Assembly (NCBI GenBank): GCA_963718965.1
Contig: CAVRBJ010000027.1
Coordinates: 73,360 to 137,359 of the forward strand
From: an uncultured delta proteobacterium
Lineage (GTDB): Bacteria > Desulfobacterota > WTBG01 > CAIYCZ01 > CAIRTM01
Direction of reading: 5' to 3'
Length of the DNA stretch: 64,000 nt
Positions 1 to 43,058 of the stretch are shown one piece after another; the first letter of the stretch is position 1, and every line of letters begins with the position of its first letter. Position numbers and translations under genes: made by a program. The notes under the pieces are model-generated. The model saw only the letters and a list, made by a program, of their open reading frames with translations. It was not told the origin of the DNA and did not search any database.

Positions 1-2110
1 GTCCTGAATTCATCAAAGCCCGGGCTGAGTATGACCGAGCCCACATTGATCTCGTCTATCTTTTCGGTAAAGCTATGGTCTATGGCGCCTGCCTTGCAGG
101 CTGCCACGCACTGCATGCACTCTGAACAAATGCCGCAGTTCAGGCAGCGCTCCGCTTCTTTAAGAGCTTCTTCACGCGTGAAGCCAAGCTCAACCTCGGT
201 GAAATTGCCCTTCCTTTTGTCATTGGGAATATGCGCCATTTTCTGGCGCGGAGCCTTGGGCTTGTGCATAAACCGGTCTTCAAGCTCGGGAGACGGCTTC
301 ACCGCCGGAGGTTTTTCACGCCCCGACTTGAGATCCTGACCGTTTAAAAACCGCTCAATTGATATGGCTGCGCGCTTGCCTGCCGCAACCGCCTCGATCG
401 CGATCCAGGGCCCGGACACGCAGTCGCCGCCGGCAAATACGCCTGGCCGGCTTGTTGCAAGGGTTACCGAATCTGCAATGATGCGGTCATGCTTGGAGCA
501 TTTCACCTCTTCGGCATCAGACAGGAATGAAAGGTCGCTCAACTGCCCGATGGCAGGGATGATCGTGTCGACATCAAGGATAAATTCCGAACCATCGATC
601 GGCACAGGCCTTCTGCGGCCGCTCATGTCGGGGCTCCCGAGCTTCATGCGCACGCAGGCAAGCCCCTTTACAATATTGTTTTCAGCCACAACCCGCACCG
701 GGGCTGCCAGATATTCAATGGCTATGCCTTCATAGAGGGCGCTTTCAATCTCATCGGCGCTGGCGGGCATTTCCCTGCGGGAGCGGCGGTAGATGATTGA
801 AACCTGTTCTGCTCCCATGCGCAGTGATGTGCGCGCAGCATCAATGGCCACATCGCCGCCGCCGATAATGGCGACCTTTTTGCCGACCGCAACCTTACTG
901 CCCAGGCTTACCGTGCGCAGAAATTCAACGCCGGGAATGACGCCCTTAGTATCCTCTCCCGGTATGTCAAGCGGCATGCTCCGGTGACTGCCTGCCGCAA
1001 TGAAAACGGCTTTATAGCCATCTGATAAAAGCGTATCGATTGAGCCTTTGCTTACCGGAGTATTCGTCTTTATCTCAACGCCAAGTTTTTTAATAGTATC
1101 GATTTCAGACTCGATAATGGTCCGGAGGCAGGCGGTAGTCGGGAATGCCCACGCGCAGCATGCCTCCGGCAACAGGAAGGGCTTCAAATATGGTGACGCT
1201 AAAGCCCTTGAGGGCAAGAAAGTATGCGCAGGTAAGGCCAGCAGGCCCCGAGCCAATGACCGCAACCTTCTCCTCCCGCTTTTCAATCGCAGGCGCTACA
1301 AATTCAGAGCCTGCCTGGTCTGCGGCATACCGCTTCAGGCTGCAGATGGAAAGGGGCTCATCAATTTTTGTGCGGTTGCAGACGGTTTCGCAGGGGTGCG
1401 GGCATACTCTGCCGATCACGCCGGGAAGGGGCAGGTTTTCCCGTATAAGATCGAGCGCTTCCTTGTATTTTTCCCGCCCTATCAGGGCGACATAACCCTG
1501 CACATTGATGCCTGCGGGGCAGCCGTCGCGGCAGGGCGCTTTTGCTATTTTATCAATGGTGAAAACATTCGGGCACTGCCTGGGGGTAGGGCCGGAAAAT
1601 GGCTTTTCTGTTGGTGAGGCCTTCTTCGAACTCATTGGGAACCTCAACCGGGCAGGCCTGGGCGCACTCGCTGCAGCCCGTGCATTTTACAGAATCGACA
1701 AAGCTTGCATGCCTTTTTATCTTTACTGAAAAATTGCCGGGCCTGCCGTCAACGCTCTGGATTTCAGAGTAGGGTATGATTTTGATATTTAAATGCCTGC
1801 CGCACTCCACAAGCTTGGGAGACAGAATGCACATGGAGCAGTCATTGGTGGGGAAGGTCTTATCAAGGCGCGCCATGACCCCGCCGATGGCAGGGGTCTC
1901 TTCGGCCAGATAGACAAAGTAGCCAGACTCGGCAAGGTCGAGGGCTGCCTGAATGCCGCCGACGCCGCCGCCGACAACAAGCACGGACCCGATTTTGGGG
2001 CCATCTTCTTTTATTACAGCTGAACAGGTACCTGCAACGCAATTCAGATTCTGATCAGACATAGGTAGAGCGGGCTGTGGGCAGCAACCGCATCCGGACT
2101 GACTGGACAC
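1..2110 (-). CDS. HdrA-like flavoprotein with an inserted GltD/NfnB-like NAD(P)H:FAD oxidoreductase module (HdrL-type fusion). The 3' end runs off the left edge, and the frame is broken twice in this assembly.
   Basis: ORF 1553..2110 has the VVGGGVGG dinucleotide fold, TNDCSMC and CTGCSECAQACP motifs typical of HdrA. Its ...RPYPQAVP continues in another frame as NVFTIDKIAKAPCRDGCPAG (ORF 1105..1647, with GltD-type VAVIGSGPAGL). Its ...GIPDYRLP continues in a third frame as TIIESEIDTIKKLGVE. I could translate that frame without stops down to base 1 (...CLNCGICSECMQCVAACKAGAIDH...SPGFDEF). The shifts lie at about 1572 (GGG run) and about 1120. Confidence 0.7.
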
Positions 2111-2239
2111 CGTGATTAAACCTCCAGAAGCACCGGCAAAAAACTTTTGCCGTTTCCCGGTCTAAAGATTAAAGGTTTTCCCTGCGTGAGCTGGCCCGTG
2201 GGCTTGCAGCTTGAGCACAGGAAAAGAGCAACAATGCAA

Positions 2240-2621
2240 TCAAACTTCAATAAGGGTCAAAGCGCCGCTGGTGCATGCCAGCACGCACTGCGGGTCCGGC
2301 GGATCACCGCAGAAATCGCATTTCAGGGCGACCTGCGTGTCGGGCTCCTTGAACCATGGCCTGCCCGGGCATGAAGCCCTGCACAGGGTGCATTCGTCAT
2401 GGTCCTTGCCGTCGATAGTTGACAATGAGCTTTGACGTGCACTCGGCTTCAGTGAAAGGGCCTGCGATGAGCGGATAGTAGATGTCCTTTTCCTCATCCA
2501 TGTATACCCTGATTCTTGACTTCTGCGGATTGACCGTATCCTCGTTATGATTCAGGGAACAGGCGGTCTCGCAGTTCCGGCAGCCGGTGCATTTCTGCTG
2601 GTCGATCTTGATTTTTTTCAT
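2240..2621 (-). CDS. 4Fe-4S dicluster ferredoxin-like electron-transfer subunit (AOR-associated), with one apparent frameshift near 2440
   Basis: ORF 2397..2621 starts MKKIKIDQQKCTGCRNCETACS. ORF 2240..2497 carries ...ECTLCRASCPG...LKCDFCGDPPDPQCVLACTSGAL. The two halves join as ...FTEAECTSK / SSLSTIDGKDHDEC in adjacent frames. Confidence 0.65.
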
Positions 2622-2678
2622 AGTATACCCCGTTGATGCCCTTAAGTTGTTTTATTATAACACCAAATATACTAAATC

Positions 2679-2933
2679 TCACCCCCCCCCGATAGGGGGG
2701 AAAATGGCAACAATATCGCCTTCCTGTAAAACGCGCGTATTGACCTCGGGAGTTGTACCCTGGGATACGCCGTTGAGCACCACGATCCTTGGCTCTTCCA
2801 TTGGTATGCCCAGAACTTTCAGTAAATCAGAAAATGTTGCCCCGTCTTTTATGGAAAGAACTGCCTTGCCGTCTTTTGCATCCGGCGGCATATAGCTCTT
2901 AAAGTTTATAAATGTCCGCACTTCGATGTTCAT
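2679..2933 (-). CDS. MoaD/ThiS-family small sulfur-carrier-like protein (C-terminal GG)
   Basis: The 84-aa ORF ends ...IVAIFPPIGGG, which is the ubiquitin-like beta-grasp signature. It sits directly downstream of aor on the same strand. Confidence 0.75.
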   Translation of the reverse strand: MNIEVRTFINFKSYMPPDAKDGKAVLSIKDGATFSDLLKVLGIPMEEPRIVVLNGVSQGTTPEVNTRVLQEGDIVAIFPPIGGG

Positions 2934-2969
2934 GGCTCAGCGCTTTTCCGAGAAACGTTTGCCTGAGCA

Positions 2970-4793
2970 TTATGCAAGGCCGAGTTCGGCAATCTTTTCA
3001 CTTGTGGGAATGCCGTTTTCATCCCACCCGCGCAGCTGGTAATACTCGGGCAGCATGACATCAAGCTTGCACACAAGGCCCTTGGCCCCGCCTTCCAGTA
3101 AAGGTTCTTTCAGAAGGCGCTCGGGCAGCGTGTCATCGGCTTTTGTAAAGCCCGCCCTGAGGTTGAACTGGCGCTCAAGGTTCCAGATGCGCTCGCCGGC
3201 CCGTATGACCTCTTCTGTGGTGTAATTAAAACCGGTCACGGCATTGAGCATGTCGCGCATGTCCTCATAGCCCATGCCGGGCGTCAGGGTCACAAAAAGG
3301 CACAGGCCCGCTGAATCGACAACCGCGGTAAGCTCCTGAAAAACCTTCACCGTCGCGGGCTTGTCCTTGGTTGTGTGGGGATCCATTTTCGCATGCACGC
3401 CGAGCACTTCATTGGCAATCAGGTAGCCGCGCACATGGCAGGCCCCGCGGTTAGACGTTGCATAGGTAAGGCCCATGCCCTGCACCCCGCGCGGATCATA
3501 GGCCGGTATTTCCTGTTTTTTTACGCCCATGAACAGCTCGGTGTGGCCGTATTTTTCCGCCAGCACATAGCCGCCGTCTGCAGCTACTGCGCCCAGGCCT
3601 TCTCTGCGGCCCATCTGCTCAATGAGCTTAACCAGGGCATCGGCATTGCCGAAGCTTAAATCCATGCCCGCATCCTCTTTCGGCATATAGCCTTTTTCAT
3701 AGAGCTCCATGGCAGTGGCAACCGTGCAGGCCGCCGATATCGTGTCCATCCCCAGCTCATTGCAGATATAATTTGCCTTGGTGATGGCCGCAAGATTATC
3801 AATGCCGCAGTCAGCGCCCATGAGCTCAACGGTTTCATACTCGGGGCCTTCGCCGTGGCCCTGAAATTTCGGGTCATCAATTTTGGTGGCTCTGCCGCAG
3901 CCGATGGTGCAGGCAAAGCAGCCTTTATTGCGGGTAAGGGTTGTTTCGGCAATGGTTTCGCCGCTGATTTTGCCCGCCGTGGCAAATGTGCCTGTCTGGA
4001 AATTGTTGGTGGGCAGAATGCCGCATTCATTAATGATGTTCACAAGAATCGCCGTGCCGTATTTGGGAAGGCCCTGGGAGGTAACCGGCCCGGCCTTCAG
4101 CTTATCCATGGCAGTGCGCACGGATTTCTTGAAAGCGTCGCGGTTTATTTTTCCAATGCCCTTTGATCCTTTAACCACAACCGCCTTCAGGTTCTTGGAG
4201 CCCATGACAGCGCCCACGCCCGAGCGGCCTGCTGCGCGGTGCTTGTCATTCATAATGCAGGCGAGTTTGCCGAGATTTTCGCCCGCTGGGCCGATGGAGG
4301 CAATATGAATTTCCTTTGCCATCCAGGGGTCGGAGATCTCGGCCCGTATCAGATCTTCGGTTTCATGCGTTGTTTTGCCCCACAGATGATCGGCCGTGCG
4401 GATTTCGATTTCATCGTCATTGATCCAGAGATACACGGGCTCGTCGGCCTTGCCCTCGAAAATGATGCCGTCGATGCCGGCAAACCGCAGCTCGGCAGGA
4501 AAGTATCCGCCGGAGTTTGAACAGGCAATGGCGCCGGTGAGGGGCGACTTGGTAATGACCATGTAGCGGGCGCTGCACGGTGCGCCCGTGCCGGTCAGGG
4601 GGCCGGTCATGAAGATCAGCTTGTTGTCAGGGCTCAGGGGGTCAATGTCGGCATCAACTTCGTCGCAGTAGATTTTTGTTCCCACGCCTCTGCCGCCGAT
4701 AAAATTCTTTTCCATTTCAGGGTCTATATCTTCAAATGCAAACTCGCGGGCGGTTAAATCCACTCGTAAAATTTTGCCGCTCCATGCTTCCAT
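2970..4793 (-). CDS. aor: Tungsten-type aldehyde:ferredoxin oxidoreductase (AOR family)
   Basis: The intact long ORF starts MEAWSGKILRVDLT...FIGGRGVGTKIY and continues ...NRGACHVRGY..., which is AOR-family-like throughout. I chose the ATG at 4793 because GGAGG lies 8 nt upstream. The ORF track start at 4808 is the alternative. Confidence 0.9.
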   Translation of the reverse strand: MEAWSGKILRVDLTAREFAFEDIDPEMEKNFIGGRGVGTKIYCDEVDADIDPLSPDNKLIFMTGPLTGTGAPCSARYMVITKSPLTGAIACSNSGGYFPAELRFAGIDGIIFEGKADEPVYLWINDDEIEIRTADHLWGKTTHETEDLIRAEISDPWMAKEIHIASIGPAGENLGKLACIMNDKHRAAGRSGVGAVMGSKNLKAVVVKGSKGIGKINRDAFKKSVRTAMDKLKAGPVTSQGLPKYGTAILVNIINECGILPTNNFQTGTFATAGKISGETIAETTLTRNKGCFACTIGCGRATKIDDPKFQGHGEGPEYETVELMGADCGIDNLAAITKANYICNELGMDTISAACTVATAMELYEKGYMPKEDAGMDLSFGNADALVKLIEQMGRREGLGAVAADGGYVLAEKYGHTELFMGVKKQEIPAYDPRGVQGMGLTYATSNRGACHVRGYLIANEVLGVHAKMDPHTTKDKPATVKVFQELTAVVDSAGLCLFVTLTPGMGYEDMRDMLNAVTGFNYTTEEVIRAGERIWNLERQFNLRAGFTKADDTLPERLLKEPLLEGGAKGLVCKLDVMLPEYYQLRGWDENGIPTSEKIAELGLA

Positions 4794-5562
4794 ATAATGG
4801 GCCTCCATATAATGATGTTGTTGCTTTAACTATGAACAGGCTTAACGAAAGTTTTTTAATCCCTTTATTTCACCCTCAGGCTGGAGGGCAACTTTTGACA
4901 GCAGAGCGTTTTTTTGAATACCGAAAAGCCTGAAGGCCGCAAAACTACCCCTTCAGGCTTCCTTCGCAAACATGGCGGGCCAGATTTCCGATCTGTCCTT
5001 ATCGGCTCCCCCTGAAGGGGAACTAGGAAACCTTTTTTTGTTGCCGTAGGCAATAAAAACGCCTTATTGATTTAATATGATTTTTTTTAAAAGTCAATTC
5101 TTTTGCATGCCCATTTTGAAAGAAAACCAAATTTTTTTCCGATGGCGTATAAGCATCAAATGCAGCTTAACATCGTTTTCCGTTGGCTTTATCAAGCTCC
5201 ATATACAACTGTTTTCTAATCAAAGCACCGAGCCGCAAGCGCCTGAAACGTCAGCTGTGGATCGACAGCCAAAAGGCAATAGCCCGAAAAAGCCCTTGCT
5301 TCCACATCGTTGAAGCACCGCGTTTTGATGCTGCAGTAATCGAGTCGCTCAGGTTTGCCAAGTCAAATTTTATTATTGCAAGCTTTGATACAGAGCGCTC
5401 AGAGCGGCGCCGTAGCGGCTGCTCCTTCAGTCGCCATCTTTTGAATTTTGCCGAAAAAGCAGAAATATTGCGCTAAACTTGGCGGGCTTTTTGTAGTATC
5501 TCTAAGCTCCAATCACGCCGCTGGCAGGACGCAGCGGGCCACCACTTCAGCTTGTGAGACAT

Positions 5563-5850
5563 ATGAAACCCGGACGCTGCAATGACATTCTAATCGATAA
5601 TCAGGGAAGGCTCATTATTCCCAAAGAGCTTGCCGATCATCTCGGGCTTGCACCGGGCGGCAGCGTGGCCCCTGCATCCCCCTCATGCACAGCCATGTGA
5701 GCTTTCTCAATGAGACCGCGAGCGGGTCATGCAGCGCTGCGTGATGGGCAGCCTGGCTGACCAGCCTCTGCAGGATATCTGGCAATCGGCAGAGTATGTG
5801 CGGCTGCGGCCTCTGTGCTCAGCGCATCATTCAGTGCCCTTAAAAATTCT
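5563..5850 (+). pseudogene. Possible remnant of an AbrB/SpoVT-domain plus radical-SAM/SPASM-type gene with an internal deletion
   Basis: The 45-codon ORF 5563..5700 (MKPGRCNDILIDNQGRLIIPKELADHLGLAPGGSV...) looks like a SpoVT/AbrB swapped-hairpin domain. The following ORF 5729.. begins ...CVMGSLADQPLQDIWQSAEYVRLR, which resembles the C-terminal tail of SPASM-type radical SAM proteins. No CxxxCxxC core is present. Confidence 0.3.
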
Positions 5851-6120
5851 GCAACTATTCAGGTCACCGGGTTTAGCTTTTGGGTTCATAAAAACCGTGA
5901 AGACAGAAGCACTGGTTGATAAGTGGCCGGCCTGCGACCTCCAACTTGCGCTTCACGGTAGCCGTCCAACTAAGGGTGTGTTTGTCTATTTACAATGTGC
6001 TGCTGACACAGCATTGCGATAGACGACTATATTTTCCACCCGTCGTTCATGTTTTCCTGTTTCTTTCCTGCCTTCTGAACCCTGCAACCTGAGGCCTGAA
6101 CAGCAAAATTCTTTACTGCC

Positions 6121-6162
6121 TTGACAAAAAACTGTTTTCTCGCTAATAAAGATGTATATACA
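6121..6162 (+). promoter_or_regulatory. Candidate sigma70 promoter plus palindromic operator upstream of marR
   Basis: TTGACA (6121-6126), a 17-nt spacer, then TAATAA (6144-6149). The perfect 10-bp palindrome TGTATATACA (6153-6162) follows immediately, about 36 nt before the marR start. Confidence 0.4.
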
Positions 6163-6197
6163 ACTACCTTTGTTCACTTTTTTGCGGACTGTGCGCT

Positions 6198-6638
6198 ATG
6201 AGTGCTTTTGATCACGACGGCAATTTCGGGCATATGCTGGGGCGCACGTCGCGCGCCATGCTCAACATGCTGCAAAAAAAATTCCGGCAGGCAGGCTGCG
6301 ACATTACCGTGGAGCAGTGGACCCTGCTCATAAATATCCGCAATGCCGACAGCCGGTCGCAACAGCAGCTTGCCGAGCTGGTCTATCTGGACAAAACCAC
6401 CATAGCCCGGCTTGCAGCGGGGCTTGAAAAAAAAGGGCTTATCAGCCGCGAGTCCCACAGCGCCGACCGGCGGCAAAAGCTGCTGGTCATTACAGCGCAG
6501 GGTACGGCTGTGCTGGCAGTTTTAAAGCCCGTGGCCCTTGCGGCCCAGCAGCAGGTGCTGCAGGATCTGGATCCGAAAAAACTCAAGAGCTGCCGTGATG
6601 TTCTGCAGCGGGTTTACAGCACTATTCTCAGCCAGTAA
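6198..6638 (+). CDS. MarR-family transcriptional regulator
   Basis: 146-aa protein with a winged-helix core: ...ITVEQWTLLINI...SQQQLAELVYLDKTTIARLAAGLEKKGLISRESHSADRRQKLLVITAQG. Confidence 0.85.
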   Translation: MSAFDHDGNFGHMLGRTSRAMLNMLQKKFRQAGCDITVEQWTLLINIRNADSRSQQQLAELVYLDKTTIARLAAGLEKKGLISRESHSADRRQKLLVITAQGTAVLAVLKPVALAAQQQVLQDLDPKKLKSCRDVLQRVYSTILSQ

Positions 6639-6686
6639 CCTTATCACCGGCGCCGCCCCTTCGGCCCGACACACAGGAGAACAGAG

Positions 6687-8138
6687 ATGATTAAAAAAGT
6701 TGCAGCTAGCCTTGCCCTCATTATTGTCATTGCAATCGCCGGATTTTTCGGCATGTATAAATACGAAAACCGGCGGCTCAGCCCCGACTATTTTCAGTAC
6801 TATAAAACTCAAAATACTGTTCCCGAAGGCAAAGTGGGCGTTTTTGTCACCGGCCTTATAATTCCCGAGACGCCCGACCCGGTCTTTTTTTACAACATCC
6901 AGCAGAAAATCACCAGGAACATCATTCCCTGGCCGTTCAGGATTTTTGCAGGCATGGACAAGGGCGTCGCCCTGTTTGATCCGGAGCGGTACTGCGAGTT
7001 TACGGAATTTATCCCCAAGCAGCTGGTGAATGCCGAGGGCGGCGACAGGGATATCGACGGCGAGCCCTATATGGAAAAGTACCGGCGAGGCGAGGTTGTC
7101 TGGCAGCCCCCCGCGAAAATGCTTCACAAAGACACCAGCTATTTTGTGTACACAAAACGCAAGGGCGGCATGCCGAGCTTGGCTGGCAAAATGATCGGGA
7201 AGGCCCGGCTCTGGTACTATGACCGGGGCATTGTGCAGAAAAAAATACCGCACTGGAAGGGCACATTTGATGTCATCAATAAGGCCATGGCAGGTATTGA
7301 CAAAAAGTATCCCGGCGTCATGTGGCGCGCCGAATGCGGCATGTACTTCTACGGGATGAAACAAAAGATCCATGAGATGCTTGACGCAGGCTGCACGACA
7401 ATTGTACTTGCCGCGCCCATGGCCGTCTTTTCACATTTCGAGGAATTCGACTCAAGCTTCCGCCACTCCAGCGAATATATTGAAGAATGGGAAAAAGCCC
7501 ATCCGGGCAAAAAGATCAAAATCATCATGGCGCCGCCCATGGGAAAGTTCAAGCCTCTGCGGGAAGCCTACCTTGCCATGCTGAAAGACCGGCTTGACAC
7601 CCTGCCCAAAGGCGCCTCGGTTGCCGTTGCCGCAGCCGTGCACGGGCTGCCCTGGGACCAGCGCTCCTGGGAGGCCTGGATCGAAATGGCGCCCGAGTAT
7701 CGCGACCCCCTGCTCGGAGAAATCCAGAAGCTTGTAAGCGGCTACGGTTTTTCAAAGACCACGGTCATGAGCTGCCAGGATGAATTTGCCGACCCCGTGC
7801 GCGATCCGAAAGACAAGTACCTGTCAACCAACGAGGCCTACTGGAAAGCCATTCGCGAAGGCTACGAATATGTGATCTGCCTGCCCATAGAGTTTTTTGC
7901 CGAGAATACCGATACGTTATACTACCACGCTATTAAAAATTATGACGGCTTTGACGGCTACAATGTCTATGAACCCATCAGCTATCCGGACTGGTCCGTG
8001 CCCTATACGCGTGAGTTTGTGCAAGACAAAACCCATGTCATTTATAACGGCGTGCCCGTGGGCAAATACCAGCACTATGTCGTGGATGCGCTCTACAGCT
8101 CCATCGACTCGGTGCTCAAACAAGGTACGGGAAAATAA
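6687..8138 (+). CDS. N-terminally membrane-anchored class-II chelatase (ferrochelatase/HemH-fold) homologue with large insertions
   Basis: Intact 483-aa ORF with RBS AGGAGA. It has an N-terminal hydrophobic helix (AASLALIIVIAIAGFFGM). Segments align by eye to HemH: GVFVTGLIIPETPDPV, DAGCTTIVLAAPMAVFSHF, SVAVAAAVHGLPW (the HemH catalytic-His motif SAHxLP), and GYEYVICLPIEFFAENTDTLYY (the HemH GFVADHLEVLY region). Confidence 0.6.
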   Translation: MIKKVAASLALIIVIAIAGFFGMYKYENRRLSPDYFQYYKTQNTVPEGKVGVFVTGLIIPETPDPVFFYNIQQKITRNIIPWPFRIFAGMDKGVALFDPERYCEFTEFIPKQLVNAEGGDRDIDGEPYMEKYRRGEVVWQPPAKMLHKDTSYFVYTKRKGGMPSLAGKMIGKARLWYYDRGIVQKKIPHWKGTFDVINKAMAGIDKKYPGVMWRAECGMYFYGMKQKIHEMLDAGCTTIVLAAPMAVFSHFEEFDSSFRHSSEYIEEWEKAHPGKKIKIIMAPPMGKFKPLREAYLAMLKDRLDTLPKGASVAVAAAVHGLPWDQRSWEAWIEMAPEYRDPLLGEIQKLVSGYGFSKTTVMSCQDEFADPVRDPKDKYLSTNEAYWKAIREGYEYVICLPIEFFAENTDTLYYHAIKNYDGFDGYNVYEPISYPDWSVPYTREFVQDKTHVIYNGVPVGKYQHYVVDALYSSIDSVLKQGTGK

Positions 8139-8148
8139 GGAGAAAATC

Positions 8149-9123
8149 ATGCCAACAGCCAGCAAAATAACAATTTTTCAGGTTGACCCGGCTTTGTGCA
8201 CCGGCTGCGGGGCCTGCGCCGGGGCATGTCCCATGCACATTCTTGAAGTCAGAGACGGGCTGAGCGCCATGACCAAAAACCGCCTGTGCCTTGAATGCGG
8301 GGCCTGCATGCGGGCCTGCCCCCGTCATGCCATCAGCGTGGCAAAGGGCGATGGGGCTGACGCCGATGCCGGGACGGACCAGAAGGCGACAGATGCTCCC
8401 GTAATGTTTACCCATGTGCTTGACGCTGTGATGGCCATTGTCGAAAAGGAGATGGAACCCCGGCAGGTATTTTCCTATAACGGCATGGACATGTCGGACC
8501 TGAACGTCATAGAAACCAACGATGCGCAGGGGTTTGCGCGCTGCTACACCGCTGACAAACTTCTGAAAATGTATCAGTCCCGGTTCACCTTTTTCGGCCA
8601 GATGTGCGTGGATGTATTCGGACTTGTGCCCGCGCCCGAATACGACCTGCCCATCTTCATGTTCGACTGGTCCGAGTCCGACGACTCAATTTTCTATATC
8701 TGCGACTTCTACCCCACCGATGATCCCGGCAGAAACCAGAAGTATCTGGCCTCGTATTTATATGAGCCCCTTGACGAGCTGTATCAGGCCAGCAGCACGA
8801 TACCGGGGCTGCGGCCAGTTCCGCTGCACTGGGTGCGGGCCCTTAATTCTCCCTACATGATAACAGGCCATATCGAAAAAGAGCCCCGCGAAAATATCGG
8901 CAGGCTCTTCAACTCGACGCTCGACTATCTGCGGGCCTGGATCGGCCTGTGGAAGAAGGCCAGGCCCTGCGACATGCAGTCGCGGCATATGCAGCTTGTG
9001 GCAGAGCGGCGGGCCGTGCTGCACGACCTCTATCTTGAAAATGATCCCGGCATCGGCTCCATCAATAAGTTCATCGGCGAAGAAAAAGGTGCGCGCGTGC
9101 TAAAACTCATACTACCGGAATAA
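8149..9123 (+). CDS. Fusion of a 2x[4Fe-4S] ferredoxin domain to a ferredoxin-dependent bilin reductase (FDBR/PcyA-family)-like domain
   Basis: The ATG at 8149 is preceded by AAGGAG. The longer track ORF from 7897 overlaps the previous gene. The N-terminus has CTGCGACAGACP and CLECGACMRACP. The C-terminal 250 aa carry FDBR-like blocks: RCY...KM..., VPAPEYDLPIFMFDW(6)FYICDFYPT (PcyA: FPEPLYGLPLFGCDIV...AIADLSPT), and a C-terminal ENDPGIGSINKFIGEEKGARVLKLIL (PcyA: [22 protein letters not shown]). Confidence 0.6.
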   Translation: MPTASKITIFQVDPALCTGCGACAGACPMHILEVRDGLSAMTKNRLCLECGACMRACPRHAISVAKGDGADADAGTDQKATDAPVMFTHVLDAVMAIVEKEMEPRQVFSYNGMDMSDLNVIETNDAQGFARCYTADKLLKMYQSRFTFFGQMCVDVFGLVPAPEYDLPIFMFDWSESDDSIFYICDFYPTDDPGRNQKYLASYLYEPLDELYQASSTIPGLRPVPLHWVRALNSPYMITGHIEKEPRENIGRLFNSTLDYLRAWIGLWKKARPCDMQSRHMQLVAERRAVLHDLYLENDPGIGSINKFIGEEKGARVLKLILPE

Positions 9124-9137
9124 AGGGAGAAATCATC

Positions 9138-10088
9138 ATGAAAACCGCAGAAATAGCTTTTTTGCCTGAAGCTGCAGACATGCTCGAAAAAATAGCCGCC
9201 ATCTGGCCGCCTATCATACGGCAGGGCAAAAAAGATAAAATTCTTTTCATGCTCAGCCTGCTTGCCCGCGCCAGAAAGATTAAAAAAGCCGACGCCGCCC
9301 TTGTTATCGAGGCCACGCGCCTGGTTGTGCCTAAGTCCTATGACCCTCTGTTTCATATGTTTGAGGACATGGAGGGGTTTAAGAAGCGCATGCTTGATCC
9401 CTTTGTGAGCGAAGCGGCGTACAACAAAATCCCTGTGAAGGTCAGGCGCTGGCCCACCCCCCGGCCGCGCAATAAAGCGGCTGCCAAACAGGCGAAAACT
9501 ATTCTTGCCGTCTGCGCAAGCCCGCGAGCCCGTGGCAATACCGATATGCTCATCGACGAGGCACTGCGCGGCGCAGCAGATGCCGGCGCGCGCACGGAAA
9601 AGATCATGCTCCACAAAATCAAGATGGGCTACTGCATCGGCTGTCGCAAATGCAAGGAGCCGGACTATGAAAAAATCTGCGTCATAAATGACGACATGGC
9701 AGATGTTTATCAAAAAATCATCGCAGCCGATGCCCTGATAATAGGATTCCCCATCTACACGGGCCGAGAATGCGCGCAGCTTTCGACATTTCTTGACCGC
9801 TGGGACGGCTATGAGCGCTACATGCTCAGCTCGCTGCTCAAGCCGGGCAGAACCGCTATGGTAATCGGCACCTGGGGCTATCCCTGCATCGACACCTATG
9901 ACCACGTGATTGAAAACATCATCTCCATTCTGAACCTGCACAAGGTCAAAACAATCGAGGCCCTGTCGGCCTGCGGATTTGAAGGTATGCGGCACGGCCT
10001 TGATGATCAGCGGCAAGGGGTCATTGCCCGCCATCCGAAAGAGCTCAAAAAAGCGTGTGACGCCGGCCGGGCCCTGGCCTGCAGCTAG
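9138..10088 (+). CDS. Flavodoxin-fold NADPH-dependent FMN reductase / iron-sulfur-flavoprotein-like protein with a roughly 110-aa N-terminal extension
   Basis: The core runs ILAVCASPRARGNTDMLIDEAL...YCIGCRKCKEP...ADALIIGFPIYTGRECAQL, typical of the FMN_red/Isf family. The gene starts 14 nt after the previous stop. Confidence 0.7.
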   Translation: MKTAEIAFLPEAADMLEKIAAIWPPIIRQGKKDKILFMLSLLARARKIKKADAALVIEATRLVVPKSYDPLFHMFEDMEGFKKRMLDPFVSEAAYNKIPVKVRRWPTPRPRNKAAAKQAKTILAVCASPRARGNTDMLIDEALRGAADAGARTEKIMLHKIKMGYCIGCRKCKEPDYEKICVINDDMADVYQKIIAADALIIGFPIYTGRECAQLSTFLDRWDGYERYMLSSLLKPGRTAMVIGTWGYPCIDTYDHVIENIISILNLHKVKTIEALSACGFEGMRHGLDDQRQGVIARHPKELKKACDAGRALACS

Positions 10089-14028: not shown

Positions 14029-14985
14029 ATGGGTTACTTTTTAGCAAAGGGTCGAAGTCTTCTTTGTAATAATGAAGACAAAAAGGCCCTGCCCTATTTG
14101 AAAACAGCTGTACAAAACACCCCTGACAGCGCAGAAGCATTTCTGCATTATGGAATCTGCCTTGACAAGCTTGGCCGCTACAAGGAAGCGGCCGCAGCCT
14201 TTCAGGAGGCGTTGCGCATACAGCCGGATTCTGCCGACACGCACTATTTGCTCGGGCGTGTCTATGTCAAGCTTGACAAGCCCGGGGAAGCGGTTGAATC
14301 ATTTAAAGAGTCGCTGCGCATACAGCCTGATTGGGCTGACGCTTACATAAGCCTGGGGTTTGCATACTCTAAGCTTGGCCGCCATCAGGAAGCAGTCGAC
14401 GCCTGTCATGAGGCTACACGCAAACAACCGGATTGGGCTGACGCTTACATACAACTGGGGCTTGCATACTCAAAGATTGGTCAGCACCAGAAAGAAATCG
14501 ACGCATACAAAAAGGCTCTGCGCATACAGCCGGATAATGCTGAGGTGCACATAAACCTGGGGACGGCATACGGCATGCTTGGCCAGTACCGGAAAGCAAT
14601 CGAAGCCTGTAAAGAGGCGCTCCGCATAAAACCGGATTTTGCTGAAGCACATTTAAACCTCGGGCGGGCATATTCTGCTCACGGCCAGTTCCGGGAAGCC
14701 GTGGAGGCCTGTAAAAAGGCAGTCAAAATAAAGCCTGATTTTACTGATGCACACTTGCATCAGGGGTTTGCTTACGGCAGGGTCGGCCTCTATCAGGCTG
14801 CAGTCGAAGCCTTTAAACAAGCCGTTAAAATAAAGCCTTTTGATTCCGGCGCGCACTATTTACTCGGGCGAGCCTACATTGATATTAATGCCAAAAGTGC
14901 GGCGTGCGAAGAATATAAAATTTTAAAAAACCTGGACAGCGAACTGGCACAGGAGCTTTTTCAGCATATTAATAAGGGTATATAA
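14029..14985 (+). CDS. Tetratricopeptide (TPR) repeat protein
   Basis: About eight consecutive 34-aa units with the pattern ...A...ALRIQPD.A.A...LG.AY...G...EA. Neighbouring units share long identical DNA stretches. Confidence 0.85.
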   Translation: MGYFLAKGRSLLCNNEDKKALPYLKTAVQNTPDSAEAFLHYGICLDKLGRYKEAAAAFQEALRIQPDSADTHYLLGRVYVKLDKPGEAVESFKESLRIQPDWADAYISLGFAYSKLGRHQEAVDACHEATRKQPDWADAYIQLGLAYSKIGQHQKEIDAYKKALRIQPDNAEVHINLGTAYGMLGQYRKAIEACKEALRIKPDFAEAHLNLGRAYSAHGQFREAVEACKKAVKIKPDFTDAHLHQGFAYGRVGLYQAAVEAFKQAVKIKPFDSGAHYLLGRAYIDINAKSAACEEYKILKNLDSELAQELFQHINKGI

Positions 14986-39524: not shown

Positions 39525-42500
39525 CTAAATTTTCCCAATCAACCTTTCTTCCATTTCCTGTATCAACTCCCGAACCGGTCGGTCGAAGAAAATTCCCTGC
39601 TCGGGTGCATCTTTTGAAAGCCCCCGGAGAAAAATATAGAAAACACCACCGAAATGTTTCTCATATTCATAGCCGGGCAGACGCAGTTGCAGATAGCAGT
39701 GCAGGGCAAGGGTGTACAGGTGATACTGCAGAAAATAGAAATTATCCCGCATGGCCTGCATGAGCCGGCCGGGGGCATAGTCGGAAGGGGCTGCGCCGAG
39801 AAAGTTCGACTTCCAGTCGATGATATAGAACCGCTCATCATGGCGAAAAACAAGGTCGATAAATCCGTTCATATACCCGGCAACGGAGGAGAAAACGAGT
39901 TCTTCAATGGCGCCGGTAAAGGCCGGCTGCCGGGCTTCTTTAAAGAGACCGGCAAGGGAGTTTTTCGACAGAGTGCGCAGGGGGAAATAAAAGCACAGCT
40001 CATGGAGCTGCGCTGAGCGGTCAATAGCGTTTAGGCTGCACACCGTGCTTTCACCCTGAAGCGCTACGGCGGCAACATCTGCAAGCATACGGCTGATAAC
40101 AGCTCTCCATTTGGCCTCAAGGCCGTATTGCAAAGCTTTTCCTGCACAAGCCCCTGAGTGGCCTCACCAGCCGGATCAGCAAAATCCGTGCGTTCTCCAG
40201 TATTTCATGCAGCATGGTGCCGATGCGGGCGCCTCCCGGCAGGGTGAACATGGTGCCTGCCTCCTGCGCAGGCGATGAAGCGGGAGGGGCTGAAAACTCG
40301 TCTGACTGGGGGAATTCCTGCTCATGGGGCCTGCCCGCGATAAGGGATGAGAAACTTGCAATGCGCCACTGGCGGCTGATGCTGCCGAAAAATTTCGGTT
40401 CGACAAGCTGCGGCTGCTTTTGCTCTGCTGCAGGAGACACTTGACGGTCAGAAGCGTTAAGAACCAAATCGCGTATGGCAATAGCGCCGCCGGAACTGTT
40501 GGCAATAGCTTTAAGCTCCTGGCGTATGTCCTCATCTGTAAGGCTTTAAAACTCTTCTTTCATTTGCGCGGCAATATCACCTGCTGCGTCAATACCTGCG
40601 CCGTGAAACAGGTATGCAGGCGCCGATGTGTATGCTTTGTCAAAGCTGCCCCAGACCATATAGCAGCGCCGCTTTGCCCGGGTGAGGGCCACATATAAAA
40701 GCCGCAGATCTTCTGCCAGCGTTTCGCGGGCTGCAATTTTTTTATGCTCATCAGATTGCTCTGAGCCGATATCAAGGGTTAGCCGCAAGCCATTGCCCGG
40801 GTCATGGAAAAGCACCTGCTGATTATTTCCTTTGCCGCCGGACCAGGCATAGGGGCAGAAGACAATGGGGTATTCAAGGCCTTTGCTCTTGTGGATGGTG
40901 ACGATTTTGACCGCGTCTTCATCGCTTTCAAGGCGCAGCTGATGCTCGTCGAGGCGGGGCGTGCCGGGATTGCGCTGGCAGGCAAGCCACTGCACAAGGC
41001 CGTCAATGCCCGGAGCTGTTTGCAGCTCCTGGCGGTGCAGCACTTCGGCAAGGTGCAAAATATTTGTTACCCGGCGCTCACCTTCAGGCTCGACAATCAG
41101 GCGCTCAAGAACTGAGCGCTCCACGAGCAGCCGGCGCAGCATGGCAAAGCAGCCCTGCTGCAGCCATAGATCATGCAGGCTGTTAAAGCCCGTGAGCTCG
41201 GCTTCATGGCTCGGGCTGTCCTGCAGAAGCTGCGCAAGCTTTTCAGCGTCATAGCCCAGCAGCACAGTAGCAAGCGCGGCCCGCAGGCACCCTTCAGAGC
41301 CGGGAGCGGCAACAGCGCGCAGCACAAGCTCAAGCTCGGCTGCCTCGGTCGTGTCAAAAATAGTTTCCGTGCTCTGGCGTATGGAGGGCACCCGGCGAAG
41401 CGCAAGCTCACGCTGCACAATGGCTGCTTCATGGTGCGTGCGAACCAGCACTGCCATATGCCCGGGCTGCTCGCCGGCTGCGATAAGAGTCACAATTTCA
41501 GCCGCCACGCAGCGGGCAATGCCCCGGCGAAGCTTTGTTACGCGCAGCTCTGCATGCTCGGCTTCAGGCACAAACCAGAGCTCAAAGGGCGGCGCGGTTG
41601 GCTGCCTGCTGCTACGCGCTCCGACACAGCATCGGTGAAACGTGATCTGCTCAAAGAGAAACGGATTAGCATGGCGGCCAAACAGCGCATTGACAGCGCT
41701 TATCAGCTGCGGGTCGGAGCGCCAGTTGGTGCCAAGGAGGTGCCGCTTTTTTACCTGCCCGACAGCGTCCAGATAGGTAAAGATATCAGCGCTGCGGAAG
41801 CTGTAGATGGCCTGCTTGGGATCGCCGATGAGAAAAAGGGCCGCGTCGGGATGCCGGAATATTTTTTCAAAAATCGCGTACTGCACCGGGTCCGTATCCT
41901 GAAATTCGTCAATCAGGGCAGCGGCAAATCTGGCGCGTACGGCAGCGGCAAGGCGGCTGCCCTCGGGCCCTATAAGGCCCCGGTAGACGCGCAGCAGCAG
42001 GTCGTCGAAATACTGAATATTCTGCGCCTGCTTGCGAAGCTCAAGCTCCTGGCGCACCTGCTCGAAAGCCGCGGCTTTTATAGCCAGCACCTGCCGGCTG
42101 TAGAGATTCTCAAGCTCCTGCGCGTTTCTATAAAAATCGCTGAAGGCATCGAAGAAGGGATGCACGGGCGGCCCGTCTTTTTTTGCAGCCTGTCTGCAGA
42201 TCGTCATTGGTGAAGCGGGAGGCATTTTCAAAAAGCGGCAGTTGTGGGCTGTCGGCGGCAAGCCAGGCGTCAAGCTGGCTGGCCCAGCCGGTGACATAGC
42301 GTTGCTGATACTTTCTGCCGTCGAGCATTTTGTTGTCCGTGAGAAGGCGGCAAATTTCGTCTTTGTTCGTCTCCCAGAGCGCTGCGAATGCCGGGTATAG
42401 CCTGCAGCAAAATTTCTTCGGCTGTCCCATAGTCAACCATAGCCTCCAGCGGCACGATGACCAGCTCGGGCTTGCTGACATGGCGGCTCACAAGGCTGTA

Positions 42501-43058
42501 GAGGCTGTCGGCGGTAAGGTTTGTCTGCAGGCAATAGGCCGTAAACAGGCGGCTCTGGCTGTAGATGTTTTTGCGCCAGAAGTCATCAACAGCGCGGCGC
42601 ACGAGATCGTCCTGCGAAGAAATAAGCTCCGTGTCGAATAACCCCCCGGCCTCGAAGGCCAGATCACGCAGCACCCGCTGGCAGAAGCCGTGTATGGTGA
42701 AAATGGCTGCCTCGTCAAAGTCGGCAATAGCAGCGGTAAGCAGGGGCACGGCATGCTCCCGGGTATGCCGGCTGAGCAGCTCCTGCAGAAACGCATCGTC
42801 TGCGGGTGCGCAGCCTGCTTGAAATGCATCGAGCGCCCCGCGAAGCCGGGTGCGCACGCGGTCGCGCAGCTCGCCCGTTGCTGCCTCGGTGAAGGTGACA
42901 ACCAGAATGCGGCGCACGTCCAGGTCGGGCCGTTCCAGTATCAGGCGCAGGAAAAGACTTGTGATGGTATAGGTCTTGCCCGTGCCCGCGCTGGCCTCGA
43001 TAAGCTGCGAGCCTTCAAGGGGGACGGCAAATGGTGAGAAATGTTTTGTATCTTTCAT
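39525..43058 (-). CDS. recB: Exodeoxyribonuclease V beta subunit RecB; four apparent frameshifts and one in-frame TAA in this assembly
   Basis: N-terminus IEASAGTGKTYTITSLFLRLI (ORF 42270..43058). The middle helicase part is ORFs 42128..42481 and 40546..42297 (...IDEFQDTDPVQY...TIHKSKGLEYPIV...LYVALTRAK). The linker is ORF 40117..40467. The C-terminal PD-(D/E)XK nuclease is ORF 39525..40133 (GFIDLVFRHDERFYIIDWKSN...QYHLYTLAL...GGVFYIFLRG). Confidence 0.85.

What the first reader, a model, noticed from the sequence alone, without database searches (positions are those of the whole stretch)
8149..9123. Ferredoxin domain covalently fused to an FDBR-like domain with an altered catalytic set
- **Seen:** the N-terminal roughly 60 aa carry two CxxCxxCxxxCP motifs. 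The remainder aligns by eye to PcyA across the central beta-sheet blocks (RCY, P.P.Y.LP.F..D, D[LF]xPT) and the C-terminal helix (NDxxxxxxxxxFGEE).
- **Catalytic residues:** the Asp of the PcyA GCD motif (Asp105 in Synechocystis numbering, from memory) is retained as FMFDW. The position of PcyA His88 appears to be Val/Phe (CVDVFGLVP versus DILHCVMFP).
- **Inference:** the electron donor is built in, and the proton-donor set differs. That points to a different substrate or regiochemistry from known PcyA/PebS/HY2 enzymes.
Basis: partly seen in the sequence, partly recalled or inferred. Interest (0 to 1): 0.7.

Follow-up and report, generated by a model that had tools for sequence, protein, structure and literature searches.

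The report
Ferredoxin-tethered bilin-reductase-fold enzyme in anaerobes
A real gene in an uncultured anaerobic sulfate-reducer-type bacterium joins a two-cluster iron-sulfur ferredoxin to a bilin-reductase-fold enzyme, next to a ferrochelatase-like gene and with no heme oxygenase nearby. This points to an undescribed, self-powered tetrapyrrole-reducing enzyme rather than a pigment-making one.

Summary
Window 8149-9123 (+) is a 324-aa ORF with a strong ribosome-binding site. It carries two CxxCxxCxxxCP motifs (all 8 Cys conserved), a ~20-aa variable linker, and a C-terminal domain that passes Pfam's FDBR threshold. The predicted fold matches HY2, PcyA, RCCR and PebA/B.

By alignment, Asp173 sits at the PcyA Asp105 position and Val156 at the His88 position. 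The nearest solved relative is HY2/PebB, not PcyA.

The family is rare: 28 clusters among 5.8 billion proteins and 16 loci among 185,579 species genomes. All are MAGs or SAGs of Thermodesulfobacteriota, plus one Spirochaetota.

In some relatives the ferredoxin is a separate, orthologous gene directly upstream, separated only by an in-frame TAA and an RBS. This supports a dedicated, built-in electron donor.

No heme oxygenase, globin or phytochrome lies nearby. The recurring neighbours are a membrane-anchored ferrochelatase-fold protein, flavoproteins, Fe-S aldo-keto reductases and a second FDBR paralog.

Best reading: a self-sufficient C=C reductase acting on a tetrapyrrole in an anaerobic salvage or catabolic pathway. 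The substrate is unknown. I found no published description of this architecture.

The parts
8149..9123 (+). Fd-FDBR fusion gene (324 aa)
   Evidence: ORF with an RBS. Pfam finds Fer4 twice plus PF05996 above its threshold. 27 homologs have the same or a split architecture.
8149..8346 (+). N-terminal 2x[4Fe-4S] clostridial-type ferredoxin domain (about residues 1-66)
   Evidence: Two CxxCxxCxxxCP motifs with 8 conserved Cys. It is 47-51% identical to the stand-alone ferredoxin genes next to unfused relatives, against 29-31% for unrelated ferredoxins.
8347..8403 (+). Gly/Asp/Ala-rich variable linker (about residues 67-85)
   Evidence: Variable in length and sequence in alignment A1. pLDDT is below 50 for residues 69-82. 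It corresponds to the TAA + RBS spacer of the split forms.
8404..9120 (+). FDBR-fold domain (residues 86-324). V156 sits at the PcyA His88 position, D173 at the Asp105 position and D299 at the HY2 Asp256 position. Family-specific invariant motifs are DWxE, DDPGRN, WVR, SPY and NDPG..NKF.G.
6687..8138 (+). Upstream operon gene: 483-aa protein with an N-terminal TM helix and a ferrochelatase (class II chelatase) fold
   Evidence: The Pfam ferrochelatase match is weak (E 1e-3). AF2 gives pLDDT 88. Foldseek finds B. subtilis and human ferrochelatase at E 1e-10 and TMt 0.60-0.69, then CbiK, SirB and FetB. It is adjacent to the Fd-FDBR gene in the annotated clade A loci apart from L001/L002, and lies upstream of three clade B loci.
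9138..10088 (+). Downstream operon gene: 316-aa FMN_red/WrbA-like flavoprotein with a CxxCxxC-containing insert and a ~115-aa N-terminal extension
   Evidence: Pfam FMN_red at E 4e-17. The nearest solved sequence is the FLR-family ene-reductase 7d38 at E 1.8e-7. It is conserved downstream in clade A but also occurs alone elsewhere.
6198..6638 (+). MarR-family regulator heading the operon
   Evidence: Pfam MarR at E 3e-14. It is conserved in L006-8, L010, L015 and L016. A TTGACA...TAATAA promoter-like site lies at about 6121-6150 (by eye).
2970..4808 (-). Divergently oriented tungsten-type aldehyde:ferredoxin oxidoreductase (AFOR). It is a possible source of reduced ferredoxin; the link is uncertain.
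   Evidence: Pfam AFOR_N and AFOR_C at E 3e-153. An AFOR is also adjacent in L006-8 and L015, and in the Spirochaetota locus L003/L027.

Best explanation
The gene encodes a self-sufficient reductase. An N-terminal 2x[4Fe-4S] ferredoxin domain is joined by a flexible ~20-residue tether to an FDBR-fold catalytic domain.

**Proposed mechanism (inferred).** Low-potential electrons enter the ferredoxin domain, for example from the neighbouring flavoprotein, from AFOR or from the cell's ferredoxin pool. They pass one at a time to a substrate bound on the central beta-sheet of the FDBR domain. Protons are delivered by the two conserved aspartates, D173 and D299. This is the radical, cofactor-free mechanism of known FDBRs and gives a 2-electron reduction of a conjugated C=C.

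**Proposed substrate (inferred).** The substrate is most likely a tetrapyrrole that is also handled by the co-transcribed, membrane-anchored ferrochelatase-fold protein through metal removal, insertion or binding. The operon is MarR-controlled and looks like anaerobic tetrapyrrole salvage or catabolism in uncultured Thermodesulfobacteriota, not phytobilin chromophore synthesis.

**Shown versus inferred.**
- Shown: the architecture, the fold, the conserved residues, the gene context and the fusion/fission with an orthologous ferredoxin.
- Inferred: the direction of electron flow, the chemistry and the identity of the substrate.
For: - **Architecture and fold:**
- **Dedicated donor:** unfused relatives (P0027 in L004; P0030 in L013; L021-24; L028) have a small 2x[4Fe-4S] ferredoxin gene immediately upstream. 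It is 47-51% identical to the fused domain. In five loci only an in-frame TAA, an RBS and an ATG separate the two genes.
- **One clade:** fused and ferredoxin-adjacent forms group together at NJ bootstrap 85/100, and split forms nest inside it (fused-only monophyly 2/100).
- **Catalytic Asp pair:** D173 and D299 are invariant in the clade and align with the known FDBR proton donors.
- **Tetrapyrrole context:** the upstream gene has a ferrochelatase fold. It recurs next to Fd-FDBR genes in both clades. Elsewhere it sits among CbiX chelatases, a nitrogenase-like reductase and HemG-type flavodoxins.
- **Not chromophore biosynthesis:** no heme oxygenase, globin, V4R or phytochrome appears in any of the Fd-FDBR loci that carry Pfam gene tables or in the 64-kb window.
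- **Catabolic flavour of clade B:** these clusters carry TetR/MarR, SDR, Fe-S aldo-keto reductase, GlcD/GlcF-like dehydrogenase, DUF1302/DUF1329 and a second FDBR paralog.
- **Cyclic tetrapyrroles are possible ligands:** FDBR active sites can be converted to bind heme and protoporphyrin IX (PMC13446030).
Against: - No substrate evidence of any kind exists, and no cultured host is known.
- AF2 could not place the ferredoxin domain (pLDDT below 50), so the cluster-to-pocket distance is unknown.
- The chelatase-fold and flavoprotein neighbours belong to much larger families (more than 340 clusters each). The flavoprotein occurs alone in unrelated contexts, and L001/L002 lack the chelatase-fold gene. 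The associations are therefore suggestive, not obligatory.
- The flavoprotein's nearest solved relative reduces flavones. MarR regulators often sense phenolics, so a non-tetrapyrrole substrate is possible.
- The retained two-Asp set is fully compatible with ordinary biliverdin reduction.
- Heme oxygenase could be encoded elsewhere in the genome, which I could not search.
Confidence: 0.5

Rival explanations
1. It is an ordinary biliverdin IXalpha reductase that makes a phytobilin such as phytochromobilin or PEB, as the pre-PcyA, HY2 and PebS enzymes do. On this reading the fused ferredoxin only adapts the enzyme to a host that lacks a plant-type [2Fe-2S] ferredoxin.
For: It passes the Pfam FDBR threshold. 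HY2 is the nearest structure. Both catalytic Asp positions, D173 and D299, are kept. Pre-2 and PebS carry this pair at the same positions and are active on BV.
Against: No heme oxygenase, BBAG globin, V4R, B12-binding protein or phytochrome lies in the window or in any Fd-FDBR locus that carries Pfam gene tables. Pre-PcyA clusters, by contrast, are stereotyped. The hosts belong to strictly anaerobic lineages, where O2-dependent BV formation is not expected (general knowledge). The neighbours look catabolic or redox-related.
Confidence: 0.12
2. It is an ene-reductase for a non-tetrapyrrole conjugated substrate, such as a plant polyphenol, polyene or quinone-like compound. On this reading the FDBR fold has been recruited to new chemistry.
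For: The regulators are MarR or TetR. The flavoprotein neighbour's nearest solved relative is a flavone ene-reductase. Clade B clusters carry SDR, AKR, GlcD/F-like dehydrogenase, AFOR and DUF1302/DUF1329 genes. The family motifs DWxE, DDPGRN and WVR are absent from canonical FDBRs.
Against: Both the FDBR fold and the ferrochelatase fold are known only as tetrapyrrole-handling scaffolds (general knowledge). They are co-transcribed here and re-associated in a different arrangement in L022-24. Many invariant Arg/Lys residues (R131, K140, R195, R230, K244, R287, R288, K307) would suit propionate binding (inference).
Confidence: 0.22
3. It is part of an alternative anaerobic terminal heme-synthesis module. 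The ferrochelatase-fold protein would act as HemH, the flavodoxin-fold protein as a HemG-like oxidase, and the FDBR/CPO-fold protein as a ferredoxin-linked substitute for HemF/HemN.
For: Three folds that parallel the last three steps of heme synthesis lie in one operon. CPO shares the FDBR fold. The chelatase-fold family sits beside HemG-type flavodoxins in L011.
Against: By sequence the domain belongs to the FDBR lineage: HY2 scores E 1e-13, while CPO scores only E about 0.05-0.2 in Foldseek. It keeps the FDBR catalytic Asp residues. CPO uses the opposite face of the sheet. The gene is far too rare for a core biosynthetic role, at 16 of 185,579 species. The operon is MarR-regulated, and clade B clusters carry uptake and catabolic genes.
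Confidence: 0.05
4. It is a non-catalytic tetrapyrrole-binding or redox-sensing protein, with the Fe-S domain acting as a sensor.
For: One paralog has a signal peptide and, if exported to the periplasm as that predicts, would be out of reach of cytoplasmic ferredoxin (L004 FDBR3). This shows that the fold may also serve as a binder.
Against: The proton-donor Asp pair and all 8 cluster ligands are strictly conserved. The operon partners are enzymes. The ferredoxin/FDBR partnership is preserved through fusion and fission.
Confidence: 0.06

Closest known systems
HY2 / PebB lineage of ferredoxin-dependent bilin reductases (e.g. tomato phytochromobilin synthase, PDB 6kmd/6kme; GtPEBB 6qwq)
   Same: It is the best sequence and fold match. 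The alpha/beta/alpha sandwich is the same. The C-terminal catalytic Asp in the (K/N)DPG motif is conserved, as D299.
   Different: Identity is only 19-20%. The fusion protein has Asp where land-plant HY2 (tomato, Arabidopsis) has Asn (the PcyA Asp105 position), and Val where it has Asp116. It is fused to a 2x[4Fe-4S] ferredoxin, whereas HY2 uses a free plant-type [2Fe-2S] ferredoxin. The hosts are anaerobic bacteria with no heme oxygenase or phytochrome in the neighbourhood.
PcyA (phycocyanobilin:ferredoxin oxidoreductase)
   Same: The fold is shared (Foldseek E 1e-10). An Asp is retained at the Asp105 position.
   Different: The profile match is only E 0.03. His88 is replaced by Val. I did not map the Glu76 position. 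The protein is not a member of the PcyA lineage.
Pre-PcyA FDBRs of heterotrophic bacteria (pre-1, pre-2, pre-3; Rockwell 2023 PMC10151467; Frascogna 2026 PMC13446030)
   Same: These are also bacterial, non-cyanobacterial FDBRs that lack His88 and Glu76. Pre-2 also has an Asp/Asp pair. Pre-1 and pre-3 clusters include a separate Fe-S protein.
   Different: Pre-PcyA genes sit in stereotyped clusters with BBAG globins, V4R proteins, a B12-binding protein and often heme oxygenase. None of these is present here. No fusion is described in those papers. I could not test the phylogenetic relationship to the two unnamed clades mentioned in PMC13193486.
RCCR (red chlorophyll catabolite reductase)
   Same: It belongs to the same superfamily and is ferredoxin-dependent. 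It acts in catabolism, not in chromophore synthesis. Foldseek gives E 4e-10.
   Different: The sequence match is weak (E 6e-3). RCCR is a plant enzyme whose substrate is made by an O2-dependent oxygenase.
BilR bilirubin reductase of gut anaerobes
   Same: It performs anaerobic bacterial reduction of C=C bonds in a tetrapyrrole. Its regulator BilQ, like the regulator here, is MarR-type: the window's MarR hits NCBIfam BilQ at E 1e-10, below the cut-off.
   Different: BilR is a different enzyme family (recalled as an Old Yellow Enzyme-type flavoprotein). The two are not homologous.
HmuS heme de-chelatase of Bacteroidota (PMC12583661), as an analogue for the neighbouring gene
   Same: It is a precedent for anaerobic iron removal from heme by a chelatase-family protein.
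   Different: HmuS is a CobN-like chelatase. The neighbour here is a ferrochelatase-fold (class II-type) protein with a TM anchor, and its activity is untested.

Membership tests
FDBR superfamily (Pfam PF05996 Fe_bilin_red) | Sequence match to the family model above the curated threshold | tested here: met
   41.2 bits against a gathering score of 31, E 1.9e-10, residues 131-321. The profile scores E 1.7e-13 against HY2.
FDBR superfamily (Pfam PF05996 Fe_bilin_red) | Alpha/beta/alpha sandwich fold of PcyA, HY2, PebS and RCCR | tested here: met
   The AF2 domain has pLDDT above 90. The top 46 Foldseek PDB hits are FDBRs or RCCR, apart from two chains of a chloroplast Ycf2/Orf2971-FtsHi motor complex. 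E-values reach 1.7e-11 and TMt is 0.6-0.79.
FDBR superfamily (Pfam PF05996 Fe_bilin_red) | Acidic proton donors at the PcyA Asp105 position and the HY2 Asp256 / PebS Asp206 position | tested here: met
   D173 and D299 are invariant in the clade. The positions were mapped through the HY2 alignment and Table 2 of PMC13446030.
FDBR superfamily (Pfam PF05996 Fe_bilin_red) | Substrate is biliverdin or another bilin, and the gene co-occurs with heme oxygenase or a bilin acceptor | tested here: not met
   No heme oxygenase, globin, phytochrome or lyase appears in the window or in the Fd-FDBR loci that carry Pfam gene tables. I could not search the whole genome, and the enzyme activity cannot be tested with these tools.
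FDBR superfamily (Pfam PF05996 Fe_bilin_red) | Electrons supplied by a separate soluble ferredoxin | tested here: not met
   The donor is covalently fused as a 2x[4Fe-4S] domain. In split relatives it is a dedicated adjacent gene.
PcyA lineage | Glu76 / His88 / Asp105 catalytic triad and closest similarity to PcyA | tested here: not met
   The His88 position is V156. The profile scores only E 0.03 against PcyA, compared with 1.7e-13 against HY2. No NCBIfam PcyA match appeared among the 25 best families listed.
Pre-PcyA lineages (pre-1, pre-2, pre-3) | Stereotyped clusters: Fe-S protein + two V4R proteins + BBAG globin (+ heme oxygenase), or B12-binding protein + globin | tested here: not met
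   None of these domains appears in any Fd-FDBR locus that carries a Pfam gene table. The definition is from PMC10151467. I could not test phylogenetic placement against named pre-PcyA sequences because no reference sequences were available.
Clostridial-type 2x[4Fe-4S] ferredoxin | Two CxxCxxCxxxCP motifs (8 Cys) within about 55 residues | tested here: met
   C17/20/23/27 and C47/50/53/57. Pfam Fer4 matches twice, and Fer4_7/9/10 also match. All are conserved in 25 fused homologs. Cluster occupancy cannot be tested here.
Ferrochelatase / class II chelatase (neighbour gene 6687-8138) | Two-lobed Rossmann-like chelatase fold with a catalytic His | tested here: inconclusive
   The fold criterion is met: Foldseek E 1e-10 to B. 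subtilis and human ferrochelatase. Pfam scores only 18.6 bits, below the gathering score of 27, and a profile search of PDB sequences finds nothing. The invariant H319 in 'VHGMPW' resembles the ferrochelatase 'AH(S/G)LP' motif as I recall it from memory. This is by eye only and was not superposed.

The most novel reading that the evidence does not exclude
The Fd-FDBR, the membrane-anchored ferrochelatase-fold protein and their recurring partners together form an undescribed anaerobic pathway. The partners are a second FDBR paralog, an SDR, an Fe-S aldo-keto reductase, a GlcD/F-like dehydrogenase and the DUF1302/DUF1329 proteins, which I take, from memory, to be outer-membrane uptake proteins.

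The pathway would import, demetallate and reductively modify cyclic tetrapyrroles such as heme or chlorophyll derivatives. The FDBR-fold enzymes would reduce vinyl or macrocycle C=C bonds.

This would be the missing enzymology behind microbial formation of meso-type or reduced porphyrins in anoxic guts and sediments, the early 'Treibs-type' transformations. It would also be the first FDBR-fold enzyme acting on a closed macrocycle.
Probability: 0.12. Interest if true: 0.85.

Novelty: new variant of a known kind. Interest (0 to 1): 0.62.

Why it matters
- **Biology of the family.** All characterised FDBRs make or degrade bilins downstream of O2-dependent ring opening, and all use a free ferredoxin. 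A conserved clade in anaerobic lineages breaks that pattern. It has its own tethered 2x[4Fe-4S] donor, no heme oxygenase nearby and a ferrochelatase-fold partner. This suggests that the fold serves an unrecognised part of anaerobic tetrapyrrole metabolism.
- **Evolution.** It bears on where FDBRs came from. The authors of PMC13446030 explicitly ask whether earlier 'archae-FDBR' enzymes exist.
- **Practical use.** A self-sufficient FDBR would be a convenient scaffold for bilin or porphyrin biocatalysis and for optogenetic chromophore supply.
- **Limits.** The substrate is unknown, all hosts are uncultured, and the family is rare.

Tried and rejected
- **Matching to published clades.** I tried to match the family to the two unnamed FDBR clades of Frascogna et al. 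2026 by looking for accessions (MEI6127331, MFC1670708, OGL44139) in the supplements. I found nothing. Only one 'Unknown' query (D6734_12105) is named, and I could not retrieve its sequence.
- **Cluster-to-pocket distance.** AF2 gave the ferredoxin domain pLDDT below 50, and no coordinates are exposed.
- **Riboswitch or other RNA leader upstream.** Rfam found no hit in the whole window.
- **Other tetrapyrrole or photoreceptor genes.** A Pfam scan of 34 of the larger window ORFs found none beyond the operon.
- **In-frame stop in the split forms.** I considered selenocysteine or read-through. I rejected both because the codon is TAA and is followed by a good RBS and an ATG.
- **Flavoprotein as a dedicated partner.** I weakened this idea because the family has more than 340 clusters and occurs alone in unrelated contexts.
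- **Bootstrap runs.** The first run timed out and the second contained invalid distances. I cite only the corrected run.
- **Phylogeny quality.** I could not run a maximum-likelihood phylogeny with curated reference FDBRs. The NJ tree of representative hits is a rough substitute.
Full report
**1. What is at the coordinates**

Window 8149-9123 (+) is an intact 324-codon ORF running from ATG to TAA. An AGGAG Shine-Dalgarno sequence lies 7 nt upstream. The gene starts 10 nt after the stop of the preceding gene, and the next gene starts 14 nt after its own stop. The four genes at 6198-10088 therefore look like one operon. The ORF list also shows a longer 408-aa TTG-start version. That is a mechanical artefact, because every homolog begins at the ATG.

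**2.

- Residues 17-28 and 47-58 are two CxxCxxCxxxCP motifs. Pfam Fer4 scores E 1.4e-12 with two stretches.
- Residues 131-321 match Pfam PF05996 (ferredoxin-dependent bilin reductase) at 41.2 bits, above the curated 31-bit threshold.
- A profile of the C-terminal domain built from ten family members hits tomato HY2 at E 1.7e-13, cryptophyte PebB at 7e-6, RCCR at 6e-3 and Nostoc PcyA at 0.03.
- An AlphaFold2 model built on 26 sequences has pLDDT above 90 through nearly the whole FDBR domain, but below 50 in the ferredoxin domain and linker.
- Foldseek against the PDB returns FDBR or RCCR structures for the top 46 hits, apart from two chains of a chloroplast Ycf2/Orf2971-FtsHi motor complex. 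HY2 scores E 1.7e-11, and PcyA, RCCR, PebB and PebA follow. Coproporphyrinogen oxidase appears only at E of about 0.05-0.2.

**3. Catalytic residues**

The HMM alignment to HY2 has no gaps across the central strands. I read it against the residue equivalences tabulated in PMC13446030.

| Window residue | Equivalent position | Conservation |
|---|---|---|
| V156 | PcyA His88 / AtHY2 Asp116 | nearly invariant in the clade |
| D173 (FMFDW) | PcyA Asp105 / AtHY2 Asn133 | invariant |
| D299 (ENDPG) | AtHY2 Asp256 / PebS Asp206 | invariant |

However, His88 and Glu76 are PcyA/PcyX specialities. PebS, KflaHY2 and pre-2 carry Asn/Asp/Asp at the three positions tabulated here. This protein therefore has the widespread two-Asp set, with an unusual Val at the third position.

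The clade has its own invariant motifs that canonical FDBRs lack: DWxE, DDPGRN, WVR, SPY, K244, RR287-288 and NKF.G.

**4. How common it is, and who has it**

- A search of 5.8 billion clustered proteins found only 28 clusters. Apart from one weak ferredoxin-only match, all are the same ~320-aa fusion (two of them truncated) or, once, an unfused 240-aa form.
- An exhaustive HMMER search of 1.84 billion representatives with the domain profile found 179 proteins at E up to 1e-3, and only 12 at E up to 1e-30.
- A scan of one genome for each of 185,579 species found 16 loci. All are in MAGs or SAGs labelled Thermodesulfobacteriota or 'delta proteobacterium', plus one Spirochaetota.
- NCBI calls the proteins '4Fe-4S binding protein'.
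- Full-text searches found no paper combining a bilin reductase with a fused ferredoxin or [4Fe-4S] domain. The pre-PcyA papers do not mention one.

**5. The ferredoxin is a dedicated partner**

- In L004/L028, L013 and L021-24 the FDBR-like gene is unfused, and a 73-80-aa 2x[4Fe-4S] ferredoxin gene lies directly upstream.
- Those ferredoxins are 47-51% identical to the window's N-terminal domain, including non-ligand positions. Unrelated ferredoxins from the same contigs are 29-31% identical.
- In five split loci the two ORFs are in the same reading frame. They are separated only by TAA, an RBS and an ATG. This spacer corresponds to the variable linker of the fused forms.
- In a neighbour-joining tree of representative hits, fused plus ferredoxin-adjacent forms make one clade (bootstrap 85/100).
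- Within that clade, clade A, which contains the window protein, is supported at 98/100.
- Fused forms alone are not monophyletic (2/100), so fusion or fission happened more than once.
- The bacterial and eukaryotic homologs that scored best against NCBIfam's PebA, PebB and PcyA models, though all below their cut-offs, fall far away in the tree.

**6. Genomic context**

*Clade A.* These proteins are at least 57% identical to the window protein. The arrangement is MarR, then a 483-aa protein, then the Fd-FDBR, then a 316-aa flavoprotein. A tungsten-type AFOR often lies upstream in divergent orientation.

*The 483-aa protein.* It has an N-terminal TM helix. Its confident AF2 model (pLDDT 88) matches B. 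subtilis and human ferrochelatase at E 1e-10, then CbiK, SirB and FetB. Its family is much larger, with at least 366 clusters. Elsewhere it sits with CbiX chelatases, a nitrogenase-like reductase carrying a protochlorophyllide-reductase domain, and HemG-type flavodoxins. That is a tetrapyrrole setting.

*The flavoprotein.* It is FMN_red/WrbA-like, and its nearest solved sequence is the FLR flavone ene-reductase. Its family also exceeds 340 clusters and can occur alone in unrelated contexts.

*Clade B.* These proteins are 42-50% identical to the window protein. The cluster is conserved and different. It contains:
- TetR or MarR;
- an Fe-S aldo-keto reductase;
- a GlcD-like FAD dehydrogenase with a GlcF-like CCG protein;
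- an SDR;
- a 124-aa membrane protein;
- Fd+FDBR, either fused or split;
- a second FDBR-like paralog of 232-234 aa;
- often DUF1302/DUF1329.

In L022-24 a homolog of the 483-aa chelatase-fold protein lies directly upstream. One MAG (Zod_Metabat.1117) carries both clades, so they are functional paralogs.

*What is absent.* No heme oxygenase, globin, V4R protein, B12-binding protein or phytochrome was seen in any Fd-FDBR locus that carries a Pfam gene table. None appeared among the 34 window ORFs I scanned either. Rfam found no RNA element.

**7. Interpretation**

*Shown:*
- a conserved, translated fusion of a 2x[4Fe-4S] ferredoxin to an FDBR-fold domain with intact proton-donor aspartates;
- a ferredoxin/FDBR partnership preserved through fusion and fission;
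- recurrent co-location with a ferrochelatase-fold protein and redox enzymes;
- no chromophore-biosynthesis context.

*Inferred:* the ferredoxin domain relays single electrons to a substrate bound in the FDBR pocket, which is the known radical mechanism of FDBRs. The substrate is a tetrapyrrole shared with the chelatase-fold neighbour. The role is salvage or catabolism under anoxia.

I give about 0.85 to the claim that it is a self-sufficient reductase, about 0.6 to a tetrapyrrole substrate, and about 0.5 to the combined statement.

*Rivals:*

| Reading | Confidence |
|---|---|
| Ordinary BV-to-phytobilin reductase | 0.12 |
| Ene-reductase for a non-tetrapyrrole | 0.22 |
| Alternative terminal heme-synthesis module | 0.05 |
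| Non-catalytic binder or sensor | 0.06 |

**8. Comparison with what is known**

It works like an FDBR and meets the sequence, fold and acid-residue criteria of the superfamily. It is not a PcyA, because His88 is absent and HY2 is the closer relative. [quoted passage not shown] It departs from every described FDBR in having a covalently attached bacterial-type ferredoxin. I could not exclude that it belongs to one of the two unnamed, uncharacterised clades mentioned in PMC13193486.

**9. Verdict**

The feature is real. It is a new variant of a known kind: the catalytic fold is known, while the fused-donor architecture is undescribed in the literature I could search and the context is unusual. 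It is rare, confined to uncultured anaerobes, and has no known substrate. Interest is 0.62. A specialist would be surprised by an FDBR with a tethered [4Fe-4S] donor beside a ferrochelatase-like gene in lineages without an obvious biliverdin source. The functional claim still rests on context alone.

Noticed in passing
L012 (ena:ERZ25039527 contig_11098), 1-9285: A 479-aa homolog of the ferrochelatase-fold neighbour lies in a cluster with two nitrogenase-like Oxidored_nitro genes (one carrying a PCP_red domain), two CbiX/ferrochelatase genes, a small ferredoxin, an FAD oxidoreductase and a 195-aa FMN_red. This looks like an undescribed tetrapyrrole-modifying gene cluster.
   Followed up: no
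L018, L020, L022-L026, L028, L029 (about 10 kb around each match): A conserved clade B cluster: TetR/MarR, Fe-S aldo-keto reductase, GlcD-like FAD dehydrogenase with a GlcF-like CCG protein, SDR, a 124-aa four-TM protein, Fd+FDBR, a second FDBR-like paralog, and often DUF1302/DUF1329. It looks like a catabolic operon for an imported hydrophobic compound.
   Followed up: partly
L004 11755-12573: A third FDBR-like paralog (272 aa) has an N-terminal signal-peptide-like segment (MRSKQIFFQVFIIFTVFFLPFSNTGFAAE). If exported, an FDBR-fold protein in the periplasm would be out of reach of cytoplasmic ferredoxin.
   Followed up: no
L021 673-680, L022-24 about 5949-5953, L028 3852-3856: In the split forms the ferredoxin and FDBR ORFs are in the same frame. 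They are separated by a single TAA followed by an RBS and an ATG. This is a clean example of gene fusion or fission by gain or loss of a stop codon inside what is the linker in the fused proteins.
   Followed up: yes
L014 7001-10783: An abundant unfused FDBR-like protein (the cluster of P0035/P0181, 96 members) lies two genes upstream of a 657-aa Oxidored_FMN + Pyr_redox_2 protein. From memory, that architecture is 2,4-dienoyl-CoA-reductase-like and the enzyme class is that of bilirubin reductase BilR.
   Followed up: no
window 4830-6197: A 1.4-kb stretch between AFOR and MarR has no convincing gene. It contains short ORF fragments, for example an AbrB/SpoVT-like 'ILIDNQGRLIIPKELADHLGL' around 5590-5650. 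These look like decayed gene remnants. Rfam finds nothing.
   Followed up: partly
window 40546-43058 (-): A UvrD/Rep-type helicase is split into two overlapping ORFs of 261 aa and 582 aa. Each matches a different part of the UvrD N-terminal domain. This is a probable frameshift, either a pseudogene or an assembly error.
   Followed up: no
window 57494-58345 (+): An AbiEii-family nucleotidyltransferase toxin (type IV toxin-antitoxin / abortive infection). The ORF just upstream (56865-57506) is likely its AbiEi partner, but I did not scan it.
   Followed up: no
L006 13931-16777: In a close relative, siroheme-synthase-like (precorrin-2 dehydrogenase), hemA and hemC genes lie about 5 kb downstream of the operon, after tsp and ychF. 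In the window the same position (14029-14985) holds a TPR protein instead, so this link to tetrapyrrole synthesis is probably only local synteny.
   Followed up: partly
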